Shown: in pieces, positions 46,801-52,800 of the stretch
How positions within the stretch are numbered: the stretch's first letter is position 1
Layout: every line of letters begins with the position of its first letter
Sequence record: LC799789.1
From: a plasmid
Direction: 5' to 3' (one strand)
DNA: 64,000 nucleotides
Program-made: the position numbers

Positions 46801-49800
46801 GAGTAGGTAGTAGTGTTATTAATGGAGCTCTTGATGAAATTTATAACACTAAGTATAGGCATGTCAGTGAGCATCTTGGATTATTTCCTTTTCCTCAACA
46901 TGATGCTGGGGAAAAGTCTCTAGCTAAACGTTGGACTGAAAATCGTGAACAAATGATCAGTGAGGCTGGGATCTGTATTTTTATATTTGGTAATAAATTA
47001 GTTAATGGTGAGGTAGTACTTGCATCTGGAATGATGGAGGAATTTCGGATTGCTAAAGAAAGAGGAAAAGTAATAATTCCAATTGGTTCTACGGGGTTTG
47101 TTGCAAAAGAAATTTTTGATGAAATGAAAGAGTCAGGGGACTATTCATATATAAACGATTATTGGAATGATTTAGAGAACGAAGAAGATGTTATAAAAGT
47201 TTTTAATACAATAAATGAAATTATTGAAGGAGTTAGATTTAGATAATGGCAACAAAAGTATTTATTTCATTTCGTTTTAGTGATGGAAAAGAGATTAAAG
47301 ATGAACTAGTTGATTTATTTGATGAATCTACTGAGGTAATTAATAGATCAGAAGATGTTGATAGAAGTCAAATGAGTAAGGACACTATTCAGGAATATCT
47401 ATATGAGAAGTTAAAAGATACATCGGTTACAATTGTATTATTAACTCCAGAGGCCGTTTCTTATAGAAAGAATTGGATTGGAAATTACGATGATTGGATT
47501 TATGATGAACTTAGATACTCCTTGGAAGATAGAAATAACAACAGAGCAAATGGCGTAGTAGCAGTATATACAGATGATGCTAAAGATATGATACTAGAAA
47601 GTAGTTCACACTATTGTGCACATTGTCAAGAAACTAAATCATGTAGAACTTTGAAATCTTTTGACAATTTAGCACGAAAGAATATGTTGAATATAAAGCA
47701 AAGCTATAAGAAAAATCCATGTAATGATCTTTATGATGATAGTCATGACTCTTATATTTCTTTAGTAAGTTTGGAGGAGTTTAAACAGGATTATACTAAA
47801 TATATTGATAATGCAAAAGATAAAAGAGATAGGCTACATGAATTTAATATATATAAAAGAATGTGAAGAGCATTGATTTAGCATAAATTGTCTTTAGAAT
47901 AAATGAAAAGGCAACACTTTTCTGTACAAGATTTATAAAGTGCTTTTGTTTGGACTAATGTCAAATATTTAGACACAAAGATAAAAAAGAAAAACGGAAA
48001 TGGCTGTTTTTCTTTTTTATCTCATGTCCATAAAATAGTTCATTTCTGGACACTGCTATTTTGGTATGATTTTTCTCTAAAAGAATTGAAACACGTGTCC
48101 ATAAATCCATCACAAGTTCTATGTCAAATTAATCACCTTGGATAAAGTTATGGAACAATGAAGTAAAAAAAAGAAAAGTGATTACCTCTCCTTTAACTAC
48201 CGGAAGATTAACGTTTCAAGGCATTCTCAGAAAATCTGTAAGTAATTCAGCACTAAAACAATTTCTTAAAAATTGATCTTAGTAAACCAGAATCATCATC
48301 ACCTGTATTGTAATATTCCTCATGGCTCTCATATATATTATCTTTTGAAATACTATTTTTAAAACCGCACTCAGTACATTTCCATGTATATTTATAGTCA
48401 TCAAAATTATTTTGAGAATTCAGATGTGCCCCGCAACGGTCACACCACCAATCGGTATCTGGGAATCTTTCTGTCATAGTATATCTCTCCCTACATATTT
48501 AAAAATTTTTATAATTAATTTCAACATTTACCATCCAATATTATACCTCTCAACTCCTTGTTGTAATAAATACTCTTTGAAATCTTTAATAAACTCATCT
48601 TCCTTATCAGGTGCATTACCATAATGACTAAATGTTCTAGTAGACTCTTCCCAAGAAAAATTATAAACATATTCTTTCTCTGTTGAATCCCAGTCTGCAT
48701 CTCCAAAAAATGTTATTTGTCCAGCTACCAATTCTATTTCTCTAGTATATTCCCCCGTATCTTCATCTACAATTGGAATCTCTACGCTAAAATCGTATGT
48801 TTTTTCGAATTCATATGACTTGAAATTACTATCATTATCTATTCCTACCATTTTCCTCACTCCTTTATTTTTTATTAGCATATAAATTTTAATCTTCTAT
48901 AACAGGAAACTGCGCTTGCACTTCTTGGCGAATATTTTCAACGTTATTTGAAAAATCTGAAATTTTTTGAATAATTTGTTGAACAATCTCTTTTTCAATG
49001 GGATTTCTAATCTCATCTAACTCTTCAATACTAGGAATCACCACGTTTTCTTCAGATTCATAAATATTATTTAGTATCATTAATAAATCATCTCTAGAAA
49101 GGTTTTCTGGCTCCACATTATTCTCACCTATAACAAACTTTGATTTTCCTGAATTAACTATTAAGACTTTCATATATTTCTCCTTTCTTTTTATATGTTT
49201 CTATTCCTGCTTCCATTGCTTCTACAAATTTTTCATAGCTACTTTCAGTTGTATCTGATTTTGTAGAGATAAGATGAGAAGAAAATTCACCGGTAAGTAC
49301 GCGATATCCCTTTTCTTTATCTTTCGTAGTCACTATTAGATAATCTGGTTCCAGTAATGCTCCTAATGTTGAATTATGTGTAACCACAAAAACAGTGCTG
49401 CTTGCAGACAAATTCCTTATAGCATCTCTTAATTCCTTCCGAATGTATTCATTATCAAGTGACGCTTCGGGTTCATCGATTAAAATTATTGGTTTTGTTT
49501 TTGCTTCTTCTAATCTCATCATTAGAGCAAATCCCACAGCCTGTCCCCCAGATGCTGGTACACCATCTGAATCCAGCAGGTTAACTTCTAAATGCAATAG
49601 ATATTCTTCTAAAATAGAAGGATTAAAGAAACTTCTTTTTTTCAAATTCCTTAAAAATGTAATATACTGCCCACTTTTATAGGGAACAATTAAATCATCT
49701 TGAACTGCTTCACTTGTACGATCTTTTCTAAACTGAGTAGCATTTATAAACGGAGATAGCTTCACAATAATTTGGTATCCATAAATTTTTTCTTTTTTTA

Positions 49801-52800
49801 TTTCAGTATTACAGACTATTTTTTGCATGAAATTATTAATTTCTTTTTCAATCTGATGTTTTTGAATTATCTTTGAAAACTCACAATCAACAACAGGGGT
49901 AATCCCAGTTTTAGATTGAACTATTTTTTTTACAGAACCTAGTATGTCATTTACTTTTTCTCGAACTTTGTTATTCTGTTGTTTCTGAACAAACAAATTC
50001 CTTACTTCACTATATGTCTCAACAAAAACTCTCCTTTTTTCAACTGAATTACTTAACAGCTCCCATAAATCTGGACTATTAATTAAATCAAGTAATTTGT
50101 ACAAGTGTGTTTCTAAGTTTTTTGTGGAAATTTCTTCAAGATTCGATTCTTTAATAAGTTGATATTTGGAAGTTGAGTTACTTGTAGTCGAATCTTTGGC
50201 GAATTGCTTCACACTTTCAACAAATTTTTCTACGTCTTGGTTAAAATCTTCTTCATTATTTTTTAGATAGTCTTGAATAGCAGAAAACTGCGAGTCATAC
50301 CGTTTTTTCCATATATCTAACGCATTTTTCCCTTGTTCTGTTCTTTGTTTTTTTATAAAATCATTGGCATTTGATGTTTCAAATTGAGCTATCTCATAAA
50401 TATCTTCATAATCATAATATTTTTTTATCGTTTCTAAAAAATTGGTTTTCAGTACCTCGTTTACCAACAATTAAATTTAATCCAGTTGAAACAGTGTGAT
50501 TTTCAATATCGATTACGTCCCTCAAATATCTAAGGTTTATACCAACTTTTGTTTTATCCATTAAACAATTCTTTATTTCTTGAAACGAGCAATTGTCAAT
50601 TTGTAAGTACGTATTTTTATTTTTTAATATTTCTATATTCTTCCTTTTTTCTTCAGGATCATTATCATCAGCGTGCGCATCACTAAATAATACTGGTGTT
50701 AAAGCATCTTCTATTCTATAAAAAGTTTGAAATTTCAATTGATTTGCTACTCCACCAACAGAACAAATAGATTCCAATTTTTCTGGTACTGATAAGGCGT
50801 TACTTTTTCCTAGTTCAAAGATATAAATTCCATTTTCCCAATTACTCATGTGAGTACAAAAATCTTCAGTAGATACTTTTCCGTTCTGTCCTAAATTTTG
50901 GGTAGATAGCCATTCAGAAAAATGAACTAGATTAGGACTATCTTCTTCTGGAAAAATAATATTTACATGTCCCTCTTCAAGACTCAGTTCTATACCTGGA
51001 AAAACCTTAGTATTTGGCAAATCATACTGGATCTGTTTAAAATTACTTTCATCAAATAAATCGTGATTAGTAATAGCAATTGCGTCTAATTCAGCTGCTC
51101 GAACATATTTCTTTAGCCACTCTGGAGAATAAGAAAAATCATAATCTTTATGACTAGAAACCGTGTGGATATGAAAATCAATTTTTTTAACCATATGTAG
51201 ACCTCCATAATAATTTGGAAACTCATGTCTTGATTATATCATGTAAACGCTGACTAATATGCTTGATATCCGCCATACAAACAACCACTCAGTGACATTG
51301 ATTTTAGAACTTGTTTGCGGCAATATAAATCCTCCTCTAATTTATTTAAATTAAGGATCTTCGAAATGGTTCTGTTGCAAAGTTTTAAATAAAGAATAAA
51401 ATCCCTTACGGTATCTATGATTTAAGCTGGGATTCCCAATAATATCTTGATTTCAGTACAGACCGAAAACCCGAAGAGAGTGCCTTCTTTTCGGGTTTTC
51501 TTATATAATCCTCGGATGGCTTCCATGCCTTTAATCGTGGTAGAGGCAGTGCGTAAACTTCGATAGAATTTATTGCGTCTCTTTACTGGACGATGGTCTT
51601 GTTCAATCAAATTATTCAGGTATTTAATGGTACGATGTTCTGTCCCTTGATAAAAGCCGTATTCTTTTAGTTTCTTAAAGGCACTTGTAATAGAGGGGGC
51701 TTTATCTGTGACTACAACCTTCGGTTCATCAAACTGCTTCACTAACCGCTTAAGAAAAGCATAGGCTGCTTGTGTGTCCCGTTTTTTACGTAACCAAATA
51801 TCCAAGGTTAAACCATCTGCATCGATGGCTCGATACAAATAATGCCATTTTCCTTTAATTTTGATGTACGTTTCATCCATTTTCCATGAATAAAAGGATT
51901 TTTTATTTTTCTTTTTCCAAATTTGATAGAGTAGTTTGCCATATTCTTGCACCCAACGATAAATCGTCGTATGAGAAACGTTAATGCCACGATCATATAA
52001 GATTTCTTGAACTTCACGATAGCTAAGGTTATAACGAAGATAGTAGCCCACGGCTACAATAATCACATCCTGCTGAAATTGCTTTCCTTTAAAAGGATTC
52101 ATCGTCATTCCTCCTGCTATCTTTTTCTATTATTCTACCTTATTTGATAGTAGATTTAAAACTTTGCAACAGAACCGTTAATTATATAGACTGAAAATTT
52201 TGAATTTTCAGAATAGAACAACTTAAAAGTACTGACAAAATTTTTTAAAGGGGCAATATTAATGTTCTGAGATAATCAAATCTTACCGAAAATCTCAAAA
52301 GTCCAATGTGACACAAGCTGATTCTGTCACATTCGTTAAAATCGCTCCATCCTTAGAGGCTCTAAGAGGAAATCACTTTTCTTTTAGGGCCTTTTTTCTA
52401 TAGCTTGTTTAAATGTGACTTATTATCTGTTATAATCATATTAAGTAACATTTGAGAGGGGACTAAAAATGAAGAGCGTGGAACCGATTCGCGACAAAAA
52501 AAAGATCGATGCCATGAAGGCCATTTTGGCTTCCGGAAAATATGGGCAACGAAATTTGGTGCTTTTTTCAATCGGGATCAATACAGCCTATCGAATCTCC
52601 GATTTAAGGCAGTTGAAATTAAGTGATGTGTTAGAAATTTCCCGTGGGCGGGTGATTGTCAAAGAACGTCTGGCCATGAAGGAACAAAAAACGGCCAAAC
52701 ATAATTCGGTCTTCATTTCAAACAAATTACGAAAAGTGATTCTCGATTATGTCCAATCCGAATTTCCTGAGCAGCTGCAAGTACATGACTTCAGCAAATA

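What the first reader, a model, noticed from the sequence alone, without database searches (positions are those of the whole stretch)
48253..51194. Convergent operon: PHP-domain/ABC-ATPase (Ppl-like) gene followed by three small acidic or zinc-ribbon ORFs - candidate undescribed defence or counter-defence module
Immediately downstream of Thoeris and convergent with it, a tightly packed minus-strand operon (gaps of -20, 7 and 50 bp) encodes four proteins. The first is a ~690-aa protein with an N-terminal PHP phosphoesterase domain (IDFHIHTVSSHKD) and a C-terminal ABC/SMC-like ATPase (LSGGQ-type signature, Walker B DEPE, H-loop). This is the architecture reported for the single-gene 'Ppl' antiviral system. 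The other three are a 94-aa acidic protein, a 117-aa acidic protein and a 74-aa double-CxxC zinc ribbon, with no recognisable domains. A published Ppl system is a single gene, so the three co-transcribed small proteins are unexplained. They could be accessory sensor or regulator subunits, an anti-defence (DNA-mimic-like) set, or an addiction module. Within this window this is the best candidate for something new.
Basis: partly seen in the sequence, partly recalled or inferred. Interest (0 to 1): 0.75.

Follow-up and report, generated by a model that had tools for sequence, protein, structure and literature searches.

The report
Broken PDC-M49 defence candidate with add-ons
This is a copy of an already catalogued but untested candidate anti-phage gene pair (PADLOC's PDC-M49), whose main gene is broken here by a 2-base deletion, followed by two small genes of unknown function that travel with the pair only in one group of enterococcal plasmids.

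Summary
The four minus-strand genes are real and tightly packed, but the finding needs three corrections.

1. The "~690-aa" PHP-ATPase is not one ORF in this window. A 2-bp deletion inside the Walker A codons (window 50449/50450) splits it into ORFs of 260 and 438 aa. The same allele occurs on 45 public Enterococcus faecium contigs. Near-identical plasmid segments carry either an intact 680-aa gene or a different frameshift.

2. The gene is not Ppl. Together with the 94-aa gene it forms PDC-M49 (A+B). This is one of PADLOC's 145 untested "phage defence candidates". The A-B pair, with its 20-nt overlap, is conserved from Enterococcus to Rhizobium and is embedded in R-M loci.

3. The 107-aa acidic protein (C) and the 74-aa zinc ribbon (D) are genuine genes under purifying selection. 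They accompany A-B only in one enterococcal clade. They also occur without A-B elsewhere. Each has decayed in some cassettes where A-B stays intact. They are therefore optional add-ons, not core subunits. C has no detectable sequence or fold relatives of known function.

The likely mechanism is an ATP-gated PHP nuclease of the ABC-ATPase/nuclease defence class. This is inferred, not shown. Verdict: a new variant of a known candidate, of moderate interest.

The parts
49154..51194 (-). PDC-M49A pseudogene. It encodes a PHP phosphoesterase (residues ~1-215) fused to an SMC/Rad50-type ABC ATPase with a ~185-aa coiled-coil insertion. The intact form is 680 aa.
   Evidence: PADLOC PDC-M49A: E 2e-136 and 3e-210 for the two fragments, E = 0 for the intact homologue P0033. 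AF2 model pLDDT 83.7. Foldseek hits to SMC, JetC, RecN and Rad50 heads, and to PHP domains 3e38, PolC and RNase AM.
50412..51194 (-). 5' fragment ORF of 260 aa: native residues 1-248 (PHP domain up to GKRGT) plus 12 out-of-frame residues.
   Evidence: The exact product is in NCBI as an E. faecium 'PHP domain-containing protein', seen on 45 contigs.
49154..50470 (-). 3' fragment ORF of 438 aa from an internal TTG. It is the ATPase lacking the Walker A motif; the native frame resumes at KTNFLET.
50449..50450 (-). Site of the 2-nt deletion (GG of GGG-AAA) that destroys the P-loop GKRGTGKT and shifts the frame.
   Evidence: Alignment with pEc378. L035, L029 and L030 carry GGTACTGGGAAAACC; the window and L036 carry GGTACTGAAAACC.
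48889..49173 (-). PDC-M49B: a 94-aa acidic protein (pI 4.3). Its start overlaps the end of A by 20 nt.
   Evidence: PADLOC PDC-M49B, E 3.3e-40. It lies directly after A in every full-length locus examined. The same 20-nt overlap is found in pTEF2 and a Rhizobium plasmid. dN/dS 0.11-0.22.
48528..48851 (-). Gene C: a 107-aa, very acidic protein (net charge -17) from an orphan family. The predicted fold is three long beta strands plus a C-terminal helix.
48253..48477 (-). Gene D: a 74-aa CxxC...CxxC zinc ribbon, followed by an acidic linker and a conserved C-terminal tail GLLxSxFKKLF.
   Evidence: Pfam zf-Sec23_Sec24, 28.8 bits, above the cut-off. 23 homologue clusters. The tail is present only in copies that sit next to C. 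dN/dS 0.08-0.20.
51365..52179 (-). IS1216 (IS6 family) abutting the operon 173 bp upstream of the A start codon. It replaces the resolvase gene found there in other plasmids.
   Evidence: Terminal inverted repeats at 51365-51402 and 52142-52179. DDE_Tnp_IS240 transposase at 51422-52108. Homology to pEc378 ends at 51367. Resolvase-A arrangement in L029-L034.
47979..48022 (.). Perfect 17-bp A/T-rich hairpin in the 386-bp spacer between the convergent Thoeris and PDC-M49 operons. It is a possible bidirectional terminator.
   Evidence: Inverted repeat I5. The consensus terminator scan found no site in 47800-51500.

Best explanation
The locus is a four-gene enterococcal variant of PDC-M49, a two-gene candidate defence system in PADLOC.

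**Core pair.** Gene A encodes an N-terminal PHP metal-dependent phosphoesterase/nuclease fused to an ABC ATPase of the SMC/Rad50/OLD-Gabija-PARIS-Septu kind. The ATPase head is split by a ~185-residue coiled-coil insertion. Gene B encodes a 94-aa acidic protein that is translationally coupled to A through a 20-nt overlap.

**Inferred mechanism.** A dimerises through ATP-engaged heads and uses the ATPase and coiled coil as a sensor or gate for foreign nucleic acid or for nucleotide status. It then licenses the PHP domain to degrade nucleic acid. B acts as a bound regulator or adaptor. This follows by analogy with Ppl (a PHP exonuclease inhibited by NTPs and triggered by 3'-OH ends) and with ABC-ATPase/nuclease systems.

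**This window.** A is a null allele. A 2-bp deletion removes the P-loop Gly-Lys codons and shifts the frame. At most a free 260-aa PHP fragment and a Walker-A-less ATPase fragment can be made, so the system is presumably inactive.

**Genes C and D.** C (107 aa, acidic, unmatched fold) and D (zinc ribbon with a C-terminal tail) are an optional add-on. They joined the 3' end of the operon once, in the ancestor of one enterococcal clade. A-B do not require them, and their function is unknown.

**Shown:** gene identities, family membership, the frameshift, the conservation pattern, and domain folds at the level of predicted models.
**Inferred:** defence function, nuclease activity, the role of B, and the roles of C and D.
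For: **Identity.** PADLOC hits to PDC-M49A and PDC-M49B. The same pair at 27% identity in pTEF2 and a Rhizobium plasmid also hits PDC-M49A/B and keeps the 20-nt overlap.

**Domains.**
- Invariant PHP residues H8, H10, H44/D45, E69, H76 and D172/H174.
- Invariant ABC motifs: GKRGTGKT, Q271, ASGGQ, DEPE, SLD and H607.
- Pfam SMC_N above its threshold for the intact protein.
- AF2 model and Foldseek hits to SMC, JetC, RecN and Rad50 heads and to PHP domains.
- Weaker PADLOC hits to AriA, PtuA, mad3 and HEC-01A ATPases.

**Defence context.**
- In the window: Thoeris on one side, and an AlwI-type R-M beyond IS1216 and the integrase/Fic remnant on the other.
- A-B embedded in a type I R-M operon in S. 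mitis: HsdR-A-B-HsdS-HsdM.
- A-B directly after a type III R-M in Pisciglobus.
- A-B next to HsdR in L012.
- Abi and TA neighbours in pTEF2 and Rhizobium.
- PDC systems were defined by such embedding (bioRxiv 10.1101/2024.01.29.577857).

**Frameshift.**

**C and D as an optional add-on.**
- Absent from 6 of 6 divergent A-B lineages in genomes.
- Of 41 plasmid records with an A-like gene, only one holds C or D.
- All loci with C or D form one clade of A.
- Synonymous divergence is similar for all four genes, so they have been co-inherited.
- D is reduced to a 3' remnant in Enterococcus sp. AZ163, and C has lost its start in L018, while A-B stay intact in both.

**Ppl mechanism.** From PMC12904381 and Xu et al., Mol Cell 2026, as cited in PMC13434339.
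Against: - No member of PDC-M49 has been tested. The authors describe the PDC set as untested, and 'PDC-M49' appears in no paper of the library.
- Nuclease activity, the substrate and the trigger are all unknown.
- A is not a sequence-level member of Ppl, so the mechanistic analogy may not hold.
- The tight same-strand packing of C and D, their purifying selection and their retention over dS of about 1 are also what true accessory subunits would show.
- Nothing is known about B beyond its linkage to A.
Confidence: 0.6

Rival explanations
1. C and D are true accessory subunits (sensor, regulator or inhibitor) of the enterococcal PDC-M49 complex. On this reading the locus is a four-component system.
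For: - Same strand, with 37-nt and 50-nt gaps and no terminator-like site inside the operon.
- The order A-B-C-D is conserved in several lineages whose A proteins are only 75-80% identical.
- dS is similar for all four genes, and dN/dS is below 1 for C and D.
- All 8 distinct contexts of the exact D sequence are the A-B-C-D cassette.
- The D tail GLLxSxFKKLF is found only in copies that sit next to C.
Against: - Most PDC-M49 loci lack C and D.
- C and D occur together without A-B, divergently transcribed, on a small Rep3 plasmid-like contig.
- Remote C homologues lie in other contexts, one directly upstream of BREX.
- D-family ribbons occur alone elsewhere.
- D is lost in AZ163 and C is truncated in L018, with A-B intact in both.
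- A sigma-70-like site (10 of 12 matches) lies just upstream of D.
Confidence: 0.3
2. C-D is an autonomous selfish or counter-defence module, for example an addiction pair or a DNA-mimic-type inhibitor. On this reading it merely hitch-hikes downstream of PDC-M49 on enterococcal plasmids.
For: - C and D occur without A-B.
- C is extremely acidic (net charge -17 in 107 aa) and evolves faster than its neighbours (dN/dS up to 0.58).
- C and D remain intact in the A-null alleles.
- The cassette sits on IS1216-rich mobile plasmids.
Against: - No match to any toxin, antitoxin or defence model in PADLOC, Pfam, NCBIfam or PHROGs; an anti-defence role could not be tested by profile, because no library used covers anti-defence proteins.
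- No structural match in PDB or BFVD.
- No C relatives in IMG/VR viral contigs.
- The divergent orientation in L016 is atypical for a toxin-antitoxin operon.
- The A-null alleles are 99.9-100% identical to the intact one, so intact C and D there say little.
Confidence: 0.2
3. The large gene is a Ppl homologue, a single-gene PHP-ATPase defence, and the downstream ORFs are unrelated.
For: - Same gross architecture: an N-terminal PHP domain and a C-terminal P-loop NTPase.
- A weak Ppl-HMM hit to the first PHP motif (E 0.0074).
- The nearest named NCBIfam family is the PHP-ATPase TrlF (E 8e-28).
Against: - The Ppl model is not among the hits for the intact protein, whereas PDC-M49A scores 1168-1262 bits.
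- The TrlF score of 97.7 is far below its cut-off of 350.
- A is ~680 aa, against model lengths of 894 and 944.
- B follows A with a conserved 20-nt overlap across phyla, so the unit has two genes.
Confidence: 0.05
4. A-B is a DNA repair or plasmid-maintenance nuclease (an SbcCD/Mre11-Rad50 analogue) and not an immune system.
For: - Fold similarity to Rad50, RecN and SMC heads.
- Frequent carriage on plasmids next to resolvase and partition genes.
- No experimental defence data.
Against: - Patchy, horizontally mobile distribution.
- Embedding inside type I and type III R-M loci and next to Thoeris, Abi and TA genes.
- Recurrent inactivation in near-identical backbones is typical of costly accessory genes.
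- The closest ATPase profiles are those of defence systems.
Confidence: 0.1

Closest known systems
PDC-M49 (PADLOC-DB v2 'phage defence candidate'; Payne et al., bioRxiv 10.1101/2024.01.29.577857)
   Same: A and B match the PDC-M49A and PDC-M49B models almost end to end. The gene order and the overlapping stop/start are the same, and so is the embedding in R-M and defence islands.
   Different: In this window A is frameshifted. This enterococcal clade also carries two extra downstream genes, C and D, which are in no PADLOC model. PDC-M49 itself is untested.
Ppl (Gao et al. 2020 single-gene system; mechanism in Xu et al., Mol Cell 2026, as summarised in PMC12904381)
   Same: An N-terminal PHP domain with intact metal-binding residues, followed by a P-loop NTPase. 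It gives a plausible mechanistic template: an NTP-gated exonuclease that senses DNA ends.
   Different: The Ppl HMM is essentially unmatched (12 bits). A is about 200 residues shorter than the model. A always comes with partner B, whereas Ppl is a single gene.
TrlF of the Photorhabdus temperature-restriction locus (NCBIfam NF045780; PMC7554251)
   Same: The best named NCBIfam hit (E 8e-28 over residues 4-459). TrlF is also a PHP ('histidinol phosphatase')-ATPase encoded in a small operon.
   Different: The score of 97.7 bits is far below the cut-off of 350. The TrlF partner is TrlG (AlbA_2 + HATPase_c_4, about 370 aa) plus the regulator TrlR, which are unrelated to B, C or D.
ABC-ATPase + nuclease defence systems (OLD, Gabija GajA, PARIS AriA/AriB, Septu PtuA/PtuB, HEC-01)
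   Same: The ATPase shares the AAA_21-type signature and Walker B region, and it hits the AriA, PtuA, HEC-01A and mad3 models. The logic is the same: an ABC ATPase sensor coupled to a nuclease effector.
   Different: The effector is a PHP domain fused to the N-terminus, not a TOPRIM or HNH domain. The partner is a 94-aa protein with no recognisable domain.
Mre11-Rad50 / SbcCD, and the SMC-based defences Wadjet and Lamassu
   Same: An ABC head split by an antiparallel coiled coil and combined with a metal-dependent phosphoesterase. The top Foldseek hits are Smc, JetC, RecN and Rad50 heads.
   Different: The coiled coil is much shorter (about 185 residues in all). The nuclease has a PHP fold, not an Mre11 or Toprim fold, and is fused in cis. 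No kleisin-like subunit was recognised.

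Membership tests
PDC-M49 (PADLOC candidate system) | Large protein matches a PDC-M49A profile | tested here: met
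   Fragments score E 2.3e-136 and 3.2e-210 against PDLC04678. The intact homologue P0033 scores E = 0 and 1168-1262 bits.
PDC-M49 (PADLOC candidate system) | Adjacent small protein matches a PDC-M49B profile | tested here: met
   E 3.3e-40 over the full length, 1-94 of 94. It lies immediately downstream with a 20-nt overlap.
PDC-M49 (PADLOC candidate system) | Both genes intact (not pseudogenes) | tested here: not met
   A 2-nt deletion in Walker A splits A. A is intact in L035, pEc378 and L029-L034.
PDC-M49 (PADLOC candidate system) | Confers anti-phage or anti-plasmid protection | not testable with these tools
   The authors describe the PDC systems as untested. No paper in the library mentions PDC-M49.
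Ppl | Sequence match to the Ppl profile (PADLOC PDLC02208, 894 positions) | tested here: not met
   Only E 0.0074 and 12.4 bits, on residues 4-45 of the PHP fragment. Not listed at E <= 0.01 for the intact protein.
Ppl | Single-gene system | tested here: not met
   B follows A in every full-length locus examined, including relatives at 27% identity in another phylum.
Ppl | PHP domain with catalytic metal ligands, plus a P-loop NTPase | tested here: met
   Invariant His, Asp and Glu residues and the ABC motifs in 37 homologues. PHP and ABC-head fold hits. In the window itself the P-loop is destroyed.
Ppl | NTP-inhibited ssDNA 3'-5' exonuclease activated by 3'-OH ends | not testable with these tools
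   A biochemical property, known from PMC12904381. There are no data for PDC-M49.
TrlF family (NCBIfam NF045780) | Score at or above the curated cut-off (350 bits) | tested here: not met
   97.7 bits, E 8e-28, with only model positions 7-524 of 944 covered.
TrlF family (NCBIfam NF045780) | Operon partner TrlG (AlbA_2 + HATPase_c_4) | tested here: not met
   No such domains in the window cluster or in the related loci inspected. TrlG is described in PMC7554251.
SMC/Rad50-type ABC ATPase superfamily | Walker A, Q-loop, signature, Walker B, D-loop and H-loop, with a coiled-coil insertion between the N and C halves of the head | tested here: met
   The motifs are invariant in the alignments. Pfam SMC_N scores 42.3 against a cut-off of 40 for the intact protein. 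Predicted helices span residues 277-460. Foldseek hits at E around 1e-5 to Smc, RecN, Rad50 and JetC. Walker A is lost in the window allele.
ABC-3C (ABC three-component) systems | Small partner carries a recognised ABC-3C C-terminal domain (e.g. CTD9) | tested here: not met
   B against Pfam CTD9 gives E 0.071 and 14.1 bits, against a cut-off of 27.9. This is a lead only.
Toxin-antitoxin pair (for C-D) | Match to a known toxin or antitoxin family, and an operonic antitoxin-toxin arrangement conserved wherever the pair occurs | tested here: not met
   No hits for C in PADLOC, Pfam, NCBIfam or PHROGs, with the remote C homologues P0162 and P0166 also blank in Pfam. D matches only zinc-ribbon models. 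The pair is divergently oriented in L016 and L017.

The most novel reading that the evidence does not exclude
C (a highly acidic protein with an unmatched beta3-alpha fold) and D (a zinc ribbon with a conserved C-terminal docking tail) together form a previously unrecognised portable two-protein module. It would plug into different immune systems as a trigger sensor or as a brake on a nuclease: fused into the PDC-M49 operon in enterococci, free-standing on small plasmids, and as a C-like gene next to BREX. Its retention in A-null alleles would then reflect a function of its own.
Probability: 0.15. Interest if true: 0.65.

Novelty: new variant of a known kind. Interest (0 to 1): 0.4.

Why it matters
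PDC-M49 is a widespread candidate immune system that has never been tested. It occurs in Enterococcus, Streptococcus, Staphylococcus, Lactococcus and Vagococcus, and on pTEF2 and even Rhizobium plasmids.

This locus offers three things an experimenter can use:
- **A natural allelic series on a near-identical plasmid backbone.** There is an intact A, a P-loop frameshift, and a poly-A frameshift. These are ready-made controls for testing function and cost.
- **A clade-specific four-gene form.** Comparing A-B with A-B-C-D would show whether small orphan proteins modulate an ABC-ATPase/PHP nuclease.
- **Carriage next to Thoeris on IS1216-mosaic conjugative plasmids of E. faecium.** This bears on phage therapy and on plasmid spread in a clinical species.

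It does not reveal a new kind of system.

Tried and rejected
- **Ppl membership:** rejected by the PADLOC profile.
- **TrlF and Spaf_1101 families:** only sub-threshold NCBIfam hits.
- **B as an ABC-3C CTD9 domain:** sub-threshold Pfam hit. PDB sequence searches with a B profile found nothing.
- **C homology:**
  - Nothing in Pfam, PADLOC, NCBIfam or PHROGs.
  - The afdb50 library was unavailable.
  - The profile hit of C to a 3150-aa protein is to bacterial cadherin-like repeats and is judged compositional.
- **Neighbours of stand-alone D-family ribbons (L019, L021, L023):** tested as hidden C homologues, with negative results.
- **C in viral contigs:** none found. The wider C alignment was too divergent for locus scanning.
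- **A in phage genomes:** none found.
- **RNA elements and terminators:** no Rfam family and no consensus terminator in 47.5-52.5 kb. Promoter-like sites are no more frequent than in shuffled sequence (20 against 17.6).
- **Frame restoration by ribosomal frameshifting:** considered and rejected. Part of the P-loop Gly-Lys coding sequence (2 nt of GGG-AAA) is physically deleted, so no single frameshift can restore GK[ST].
- **L016 flanking ORFs:** the 231-aa ORFs are not IS1216-like.

Full report
**1. What is in the sequence**

Between 48253 and 51194 the minus strand carries five ORFs, not four:
- 50412-51194 (260 aa)
- 49154-50470 (438 aa, TTG start)
- 48889-49173 (94 aa)
- 48528-48881 (117 aa)
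- 48253-48477 (74 aa)

The first two overlap by 59 nt in different frames. The PHP frame reads ...LNLIVGKRGT-ENQFFRNDKKIL*. The other frame continues ...KTNFLETIKKYY.

The region is 99.3% identical to Enterococcus casseliflavus plasmid pEc378, where a single 680-aa gene is annotated. Base-by-base alignment shows one relevant difference. The window has GGTACTG--AAAACC where pEc378 has GGTACTGGGAAAACC. This is a 2-nt deletion between window 50449 and 50450, and it removes part of the Gly-Lys codons of the Walker A motif GKRGTGKT.

The allele is real:
- The exact 260-aa product, with its out-of-frame tail, is deposited from E. faecium (BDW39656.1 and others) and seen on 45 contigs.
- Locus L036 (GCA_014325955.1) is 100% identical to the window over 7143 bp spanning IS1216, the split A, B, C, D and Thoeris.

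The other details of the observation hold. These are the 20-nt A/B overlap, the 50-nt C/D gap, convergence with Thoeris (ThsB 44575-45804, ThsA 45834-47246, ThsB 47246-47866), and the acidic B and C (net charge -11.5 and -17.4). D is a double-CxxC ribbon that passes Pfam zf-Sec23_Sec24.

C most likely starts at 48851, giving 107 aa. That ATG has an AAGGAG 9 nt upstream, and no homologue is longer than 107 aa.

**2. Identity of A and B**

PADLOC-DB assigns the two A fragments to PDC-M49A (E 2e-136 and 3e-210) and the 94-aa protein to PDC-M49B (E 3e-40). The intact homologue P0033 is 100% identical over the ATPase part and scores E = 0.

The Ppl model gives only 12.4 bits on residues 4-45 of the PHP fragment, and it is not listed for the intact protein. 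The nearest named NCBIfam family is TrlF, the PHP-ATPase of the Photorhabdus temperature-restriction locus (PMC7554251). It scores 97.7 bits against a cut-off of 350.

PDC systems are 145 candidate systems. They were derived from genes embedded in BREX, DISARM and type I R-M loci, and their authors explicitly call them untested (bioRxiv 10.1101/2024.01.29.577857). "PDC-M49" occurs in no paper of the library.

**3. Anatomy of A**

In alignments of 10 and 37 homologues the following are invariant:
- PHP ligands: H8, H10, H44/D45, E69, H76 and D172/H174
- ABC motifs: Walker A 244-251, Q271, ASGGQ 548-552, D574-E575, SLD and H607

An AlphaFold2 model (pLDDT 83.7) shows three parts:
- an N-terminal alpha/beta PHP domain (about residues 1-215);
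- an ABC head whose two halves are separated by helices 277-460, forming a coiled-coil insertion;
- a short C-terminal helical tail.

Foldseek against the PDB returns two groups of hits. One is Smc, JetC, RecN, Rad50 and cohesin heads. The other is PHP domains: 3e38, PolC, RNase AM 7ug9 and Pol III alpha. Pfam SMC_N is above its threshold for the intact protein. Weaker PADLOC hits are to the defence ATPases AriA, PtuA, mad3 and HEC-01A.

**4. Conservation of the A-B pair**

A has at least 209 clusters at 90% identity. They come from Enterococcus, Vagococcus, Lactococcus, Streptococcus (mutans, equi, suis and others), Staphylococcus and Aerococcus.

In every full-length locus retrieved, B follows A directly. 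At only 27% identity, E. faecalis pTEF2 and a Rhizobium plasmid carry a ~680-aa PHP-ATPase plus a ~100-aa ORF. These also hit the PDC-M49A/B models and keep the same 20-nt overlap. B is therefore a core partner, probably translationally coupled. It is not an "unexplained" extra.

The genomic context supports a defence role:
- In S. mitis the pair sits inside a type I R-M operon: HsdR-A-B-HsdS-HsdM.
- In Pisciglobus it lies directly after a type III Mod-Res pair.
- In L012 it lies after HsdR.
- In pTEF2 and Rhizobium it lies near Abi and TA genes.
- In the window it lies next to Thoeris; beyond IS1216 and an integrase/Fic remnant comes a double D12 methylase/AlwI-type R-M.

No homologue was found in 50,697 phage genomes.

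**5. C and D**

Both are genuine genes. C has 9 homologue clusters at 90% identity and only 23 at 50% among 1.84 billion representatives. D has 23 clusters. dN/dS is 0.28-0.58 for C and 0.08-0.20 for D. For comparison it is 0.12-0.17 for A and 0.11-0.22 for B. Synonymous divergence is of similar size for all four genes in each comparison.

| Gene content | Loci |
|---|---|
| A-B-C-D | window, pEc378, L012, L013/14, L029-L038; also L018, where C has lost its start |
| A-B-C | Enterococcus sp. AZ163, with only a 3' remnant of D |
| A-B only | Staphylococcus plasmids, Pisciglobus, a Streptococcaceae MAG, S. caviae, S. mitis, Fructobacillus, pTEF2, Rhizobium |
| C+D without A-B, divergently oriented | small Rep3 plasmid-like contig L016/17 |
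| Remote C homologues alone | L025-L028, one of them immediately upstream of brxA-brxB-brxC |
| D-family ribbons alone, lacking the C-terminal tail | unrelated contexts, including a phage-like region |

Further points:
- In L018 C has lost its start while A, B and D are intact.
- In PLSDB, 41 plasmids carry an A-like gene, but only pEc378 carries C or D.
- All cassettes that bear C or D form one clade in the A tree, with at least 75% identity.

The simplest reading is a single capture of C-D at the 3' end of the operon in one enterococcal lineage. This was followed by co-inheritance and occasional loss. The add-on is optional, not a core subunit set.

**6. Recurrent inactivation of A**

On a backbone that is 99.9-100% identical (IS1216-A-B-C-D-Thoeris), three alleles exist:
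- intact (L035);
- the P-loop 2-nt deletion (window and L036);
- an A8-to-A7 slip at nucleotide 1266 of A (L030).

A more distant Fructobacillus copy is frameshifted at a T7 run right after the Walker A motif. B, C, D and Thoeris stay intact in the three enterococcal alleles; in Fructobacillus B is retained and there is no C or D. This suggests that A is costly or is often counter-selected. With so few events it is only an observation.

**7. Mechanism (inferred)**

The template is twofold. Ppl is an ssDNA 3'-5' PHP exonuclease held inactive by NTPs bound to both of its domains and activated by 3'-OH ends (PMC12904381; Xu et al., Mol Cell 2026, as cited in PMC13434339). The ABC-ATPase/nuclease systems (OLD, Gabija, PARIS, Septu) and Mre11-Rad50 provide the second analogy.

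By these analogies, A probably dimerises through ATP-bound heads and uses the ATPase and coiled coil as a sensor or gate. It then releases PHP nuclease activity on invading or replicating DNA. B would be a bound modulator.

In this window the P-loop is destroyed, so the system is presumably non-functional. None of this has been tested for any PDC-M49 member.

**8. Verdict**

The genes are real, but the key ORF is broken.
This is a defence candidate, but it is already catalogued as PDC-M49, it is not Ppl, and only C and D are unexplained.
- It is a new four-gene variant of a known, untested candidate, seen here as a pseudogenised copy.
- Interest is moderate (0.4). The value lies in the natural allelic series, in the optional C-D add-on with an orphan fold, and in the clinical-plasmid context. 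The locus does not represent a new category of system.

Noticed in passing
window 49154-51194; L030 (A nt 1266); L008 6740-6770: A has been inactivated independently several times. The window and L036 carry a 2-nt deletion in the P-loop. L030 carries an A8-to-A7 slip on a 99.9%-identical backbone. Fructobacillus tropaeoli carries a frameshift at a T7 run right after Walker A. B, C, D and Thoeris stay intact in the enterococcal alleles.
   Followed up: partly
window 44575-47866 (+): A complete type I Thoeris locus: ThsB (409 aa), ThsA (SIR2 + SLOG/STALD) and ThsB (206 aa). It is 99.1% identical to Lactococcus petauri plasmid NZ_CP141702. The neighbouring PDC-M49 cassette instead matches Enterococcus plasmids, so the region is a mosaic.
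   Followed up: partly
window 51365-52179: IS1216 (IS6 family) with 38-nt terminal inverted repeats forms the junction 173 bp upstream of A. In other plasmids a resolvase gene occupies this position. The native promoter of A may have been altered.
   Followed up: partly
window 53117-53590: The Fic-family gene is truncated at about codon 157. Homology to the 232-aa pEc378 gene ends at about 53588, which marks a recombination breakpoint. The upstream tyrosine recombinase (52469-53068) is intact.
   Followed up: yes
window 54212-58269 (+): A 700-aa protein with an HTH domain and two D12-class N6-adenine methyltransferase modules is followed, with overlapping stop and start, by a 651-aa AlwI-family restriction endonuclease. 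This looks like a type IIS-like R-M system.
   Followed up: partly
window 43405-44238 (+): A 277-aa secreted protein with long VDP and PTEPSE proline-rich repeats and a C-terminal LPKTG sorting signal. The repeats create a local GC spike (0.50) and a spurious antisense ORF.
   Followed up: no
window 36813-42948: Conjugation genes (a type IV coupling protein at 36813-38468 and a TcpC-like protein at 41980-42948) are interrupted by an IS110-family transposase (40470-41705). The window appears to come from a conjugative plasmid or ICE.
   Followed up: no
window 47979-48022: A perfect 17-bp A/T-rich hairpin with a 10-nt loop lies in the spacer between the two convergent operons. It is a possible bidirectional terminator that the G+C-based scan missed.
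   Followed up: no
L007 2984-11218: In Streptococcus mitis the A-B pair is inserted inside a type I R-M operon, in the order HsdR-A-B-HsdS-HsdM. This is a textbook case of the 'embedded gene' pattern used to define PDC systems.
   Followed up: yes
L027 5001-10378: A remote C homologue (125 aa, 41% identity) lies about 0.7 kb upstream of a BREX brxA-brxB-brxC cluster, with no PHP-ATPase nearby.
   Followed up: partly
L005 8563-10471: Downstream of A-B in Streptococcus caviae there is a DUF6414 protein followed by an AAA ATPase with overlapping reading frames. This may be another uncharacterised defence-island pair.
   Followed up: no
window 48540-48567 (-): A sigma-70-like site (ATTACA-16-TATAAT, 10 of 12 matches) lies at the 3' end of C, just upstream of D. 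D may have its own promoter.
   Followed up: no
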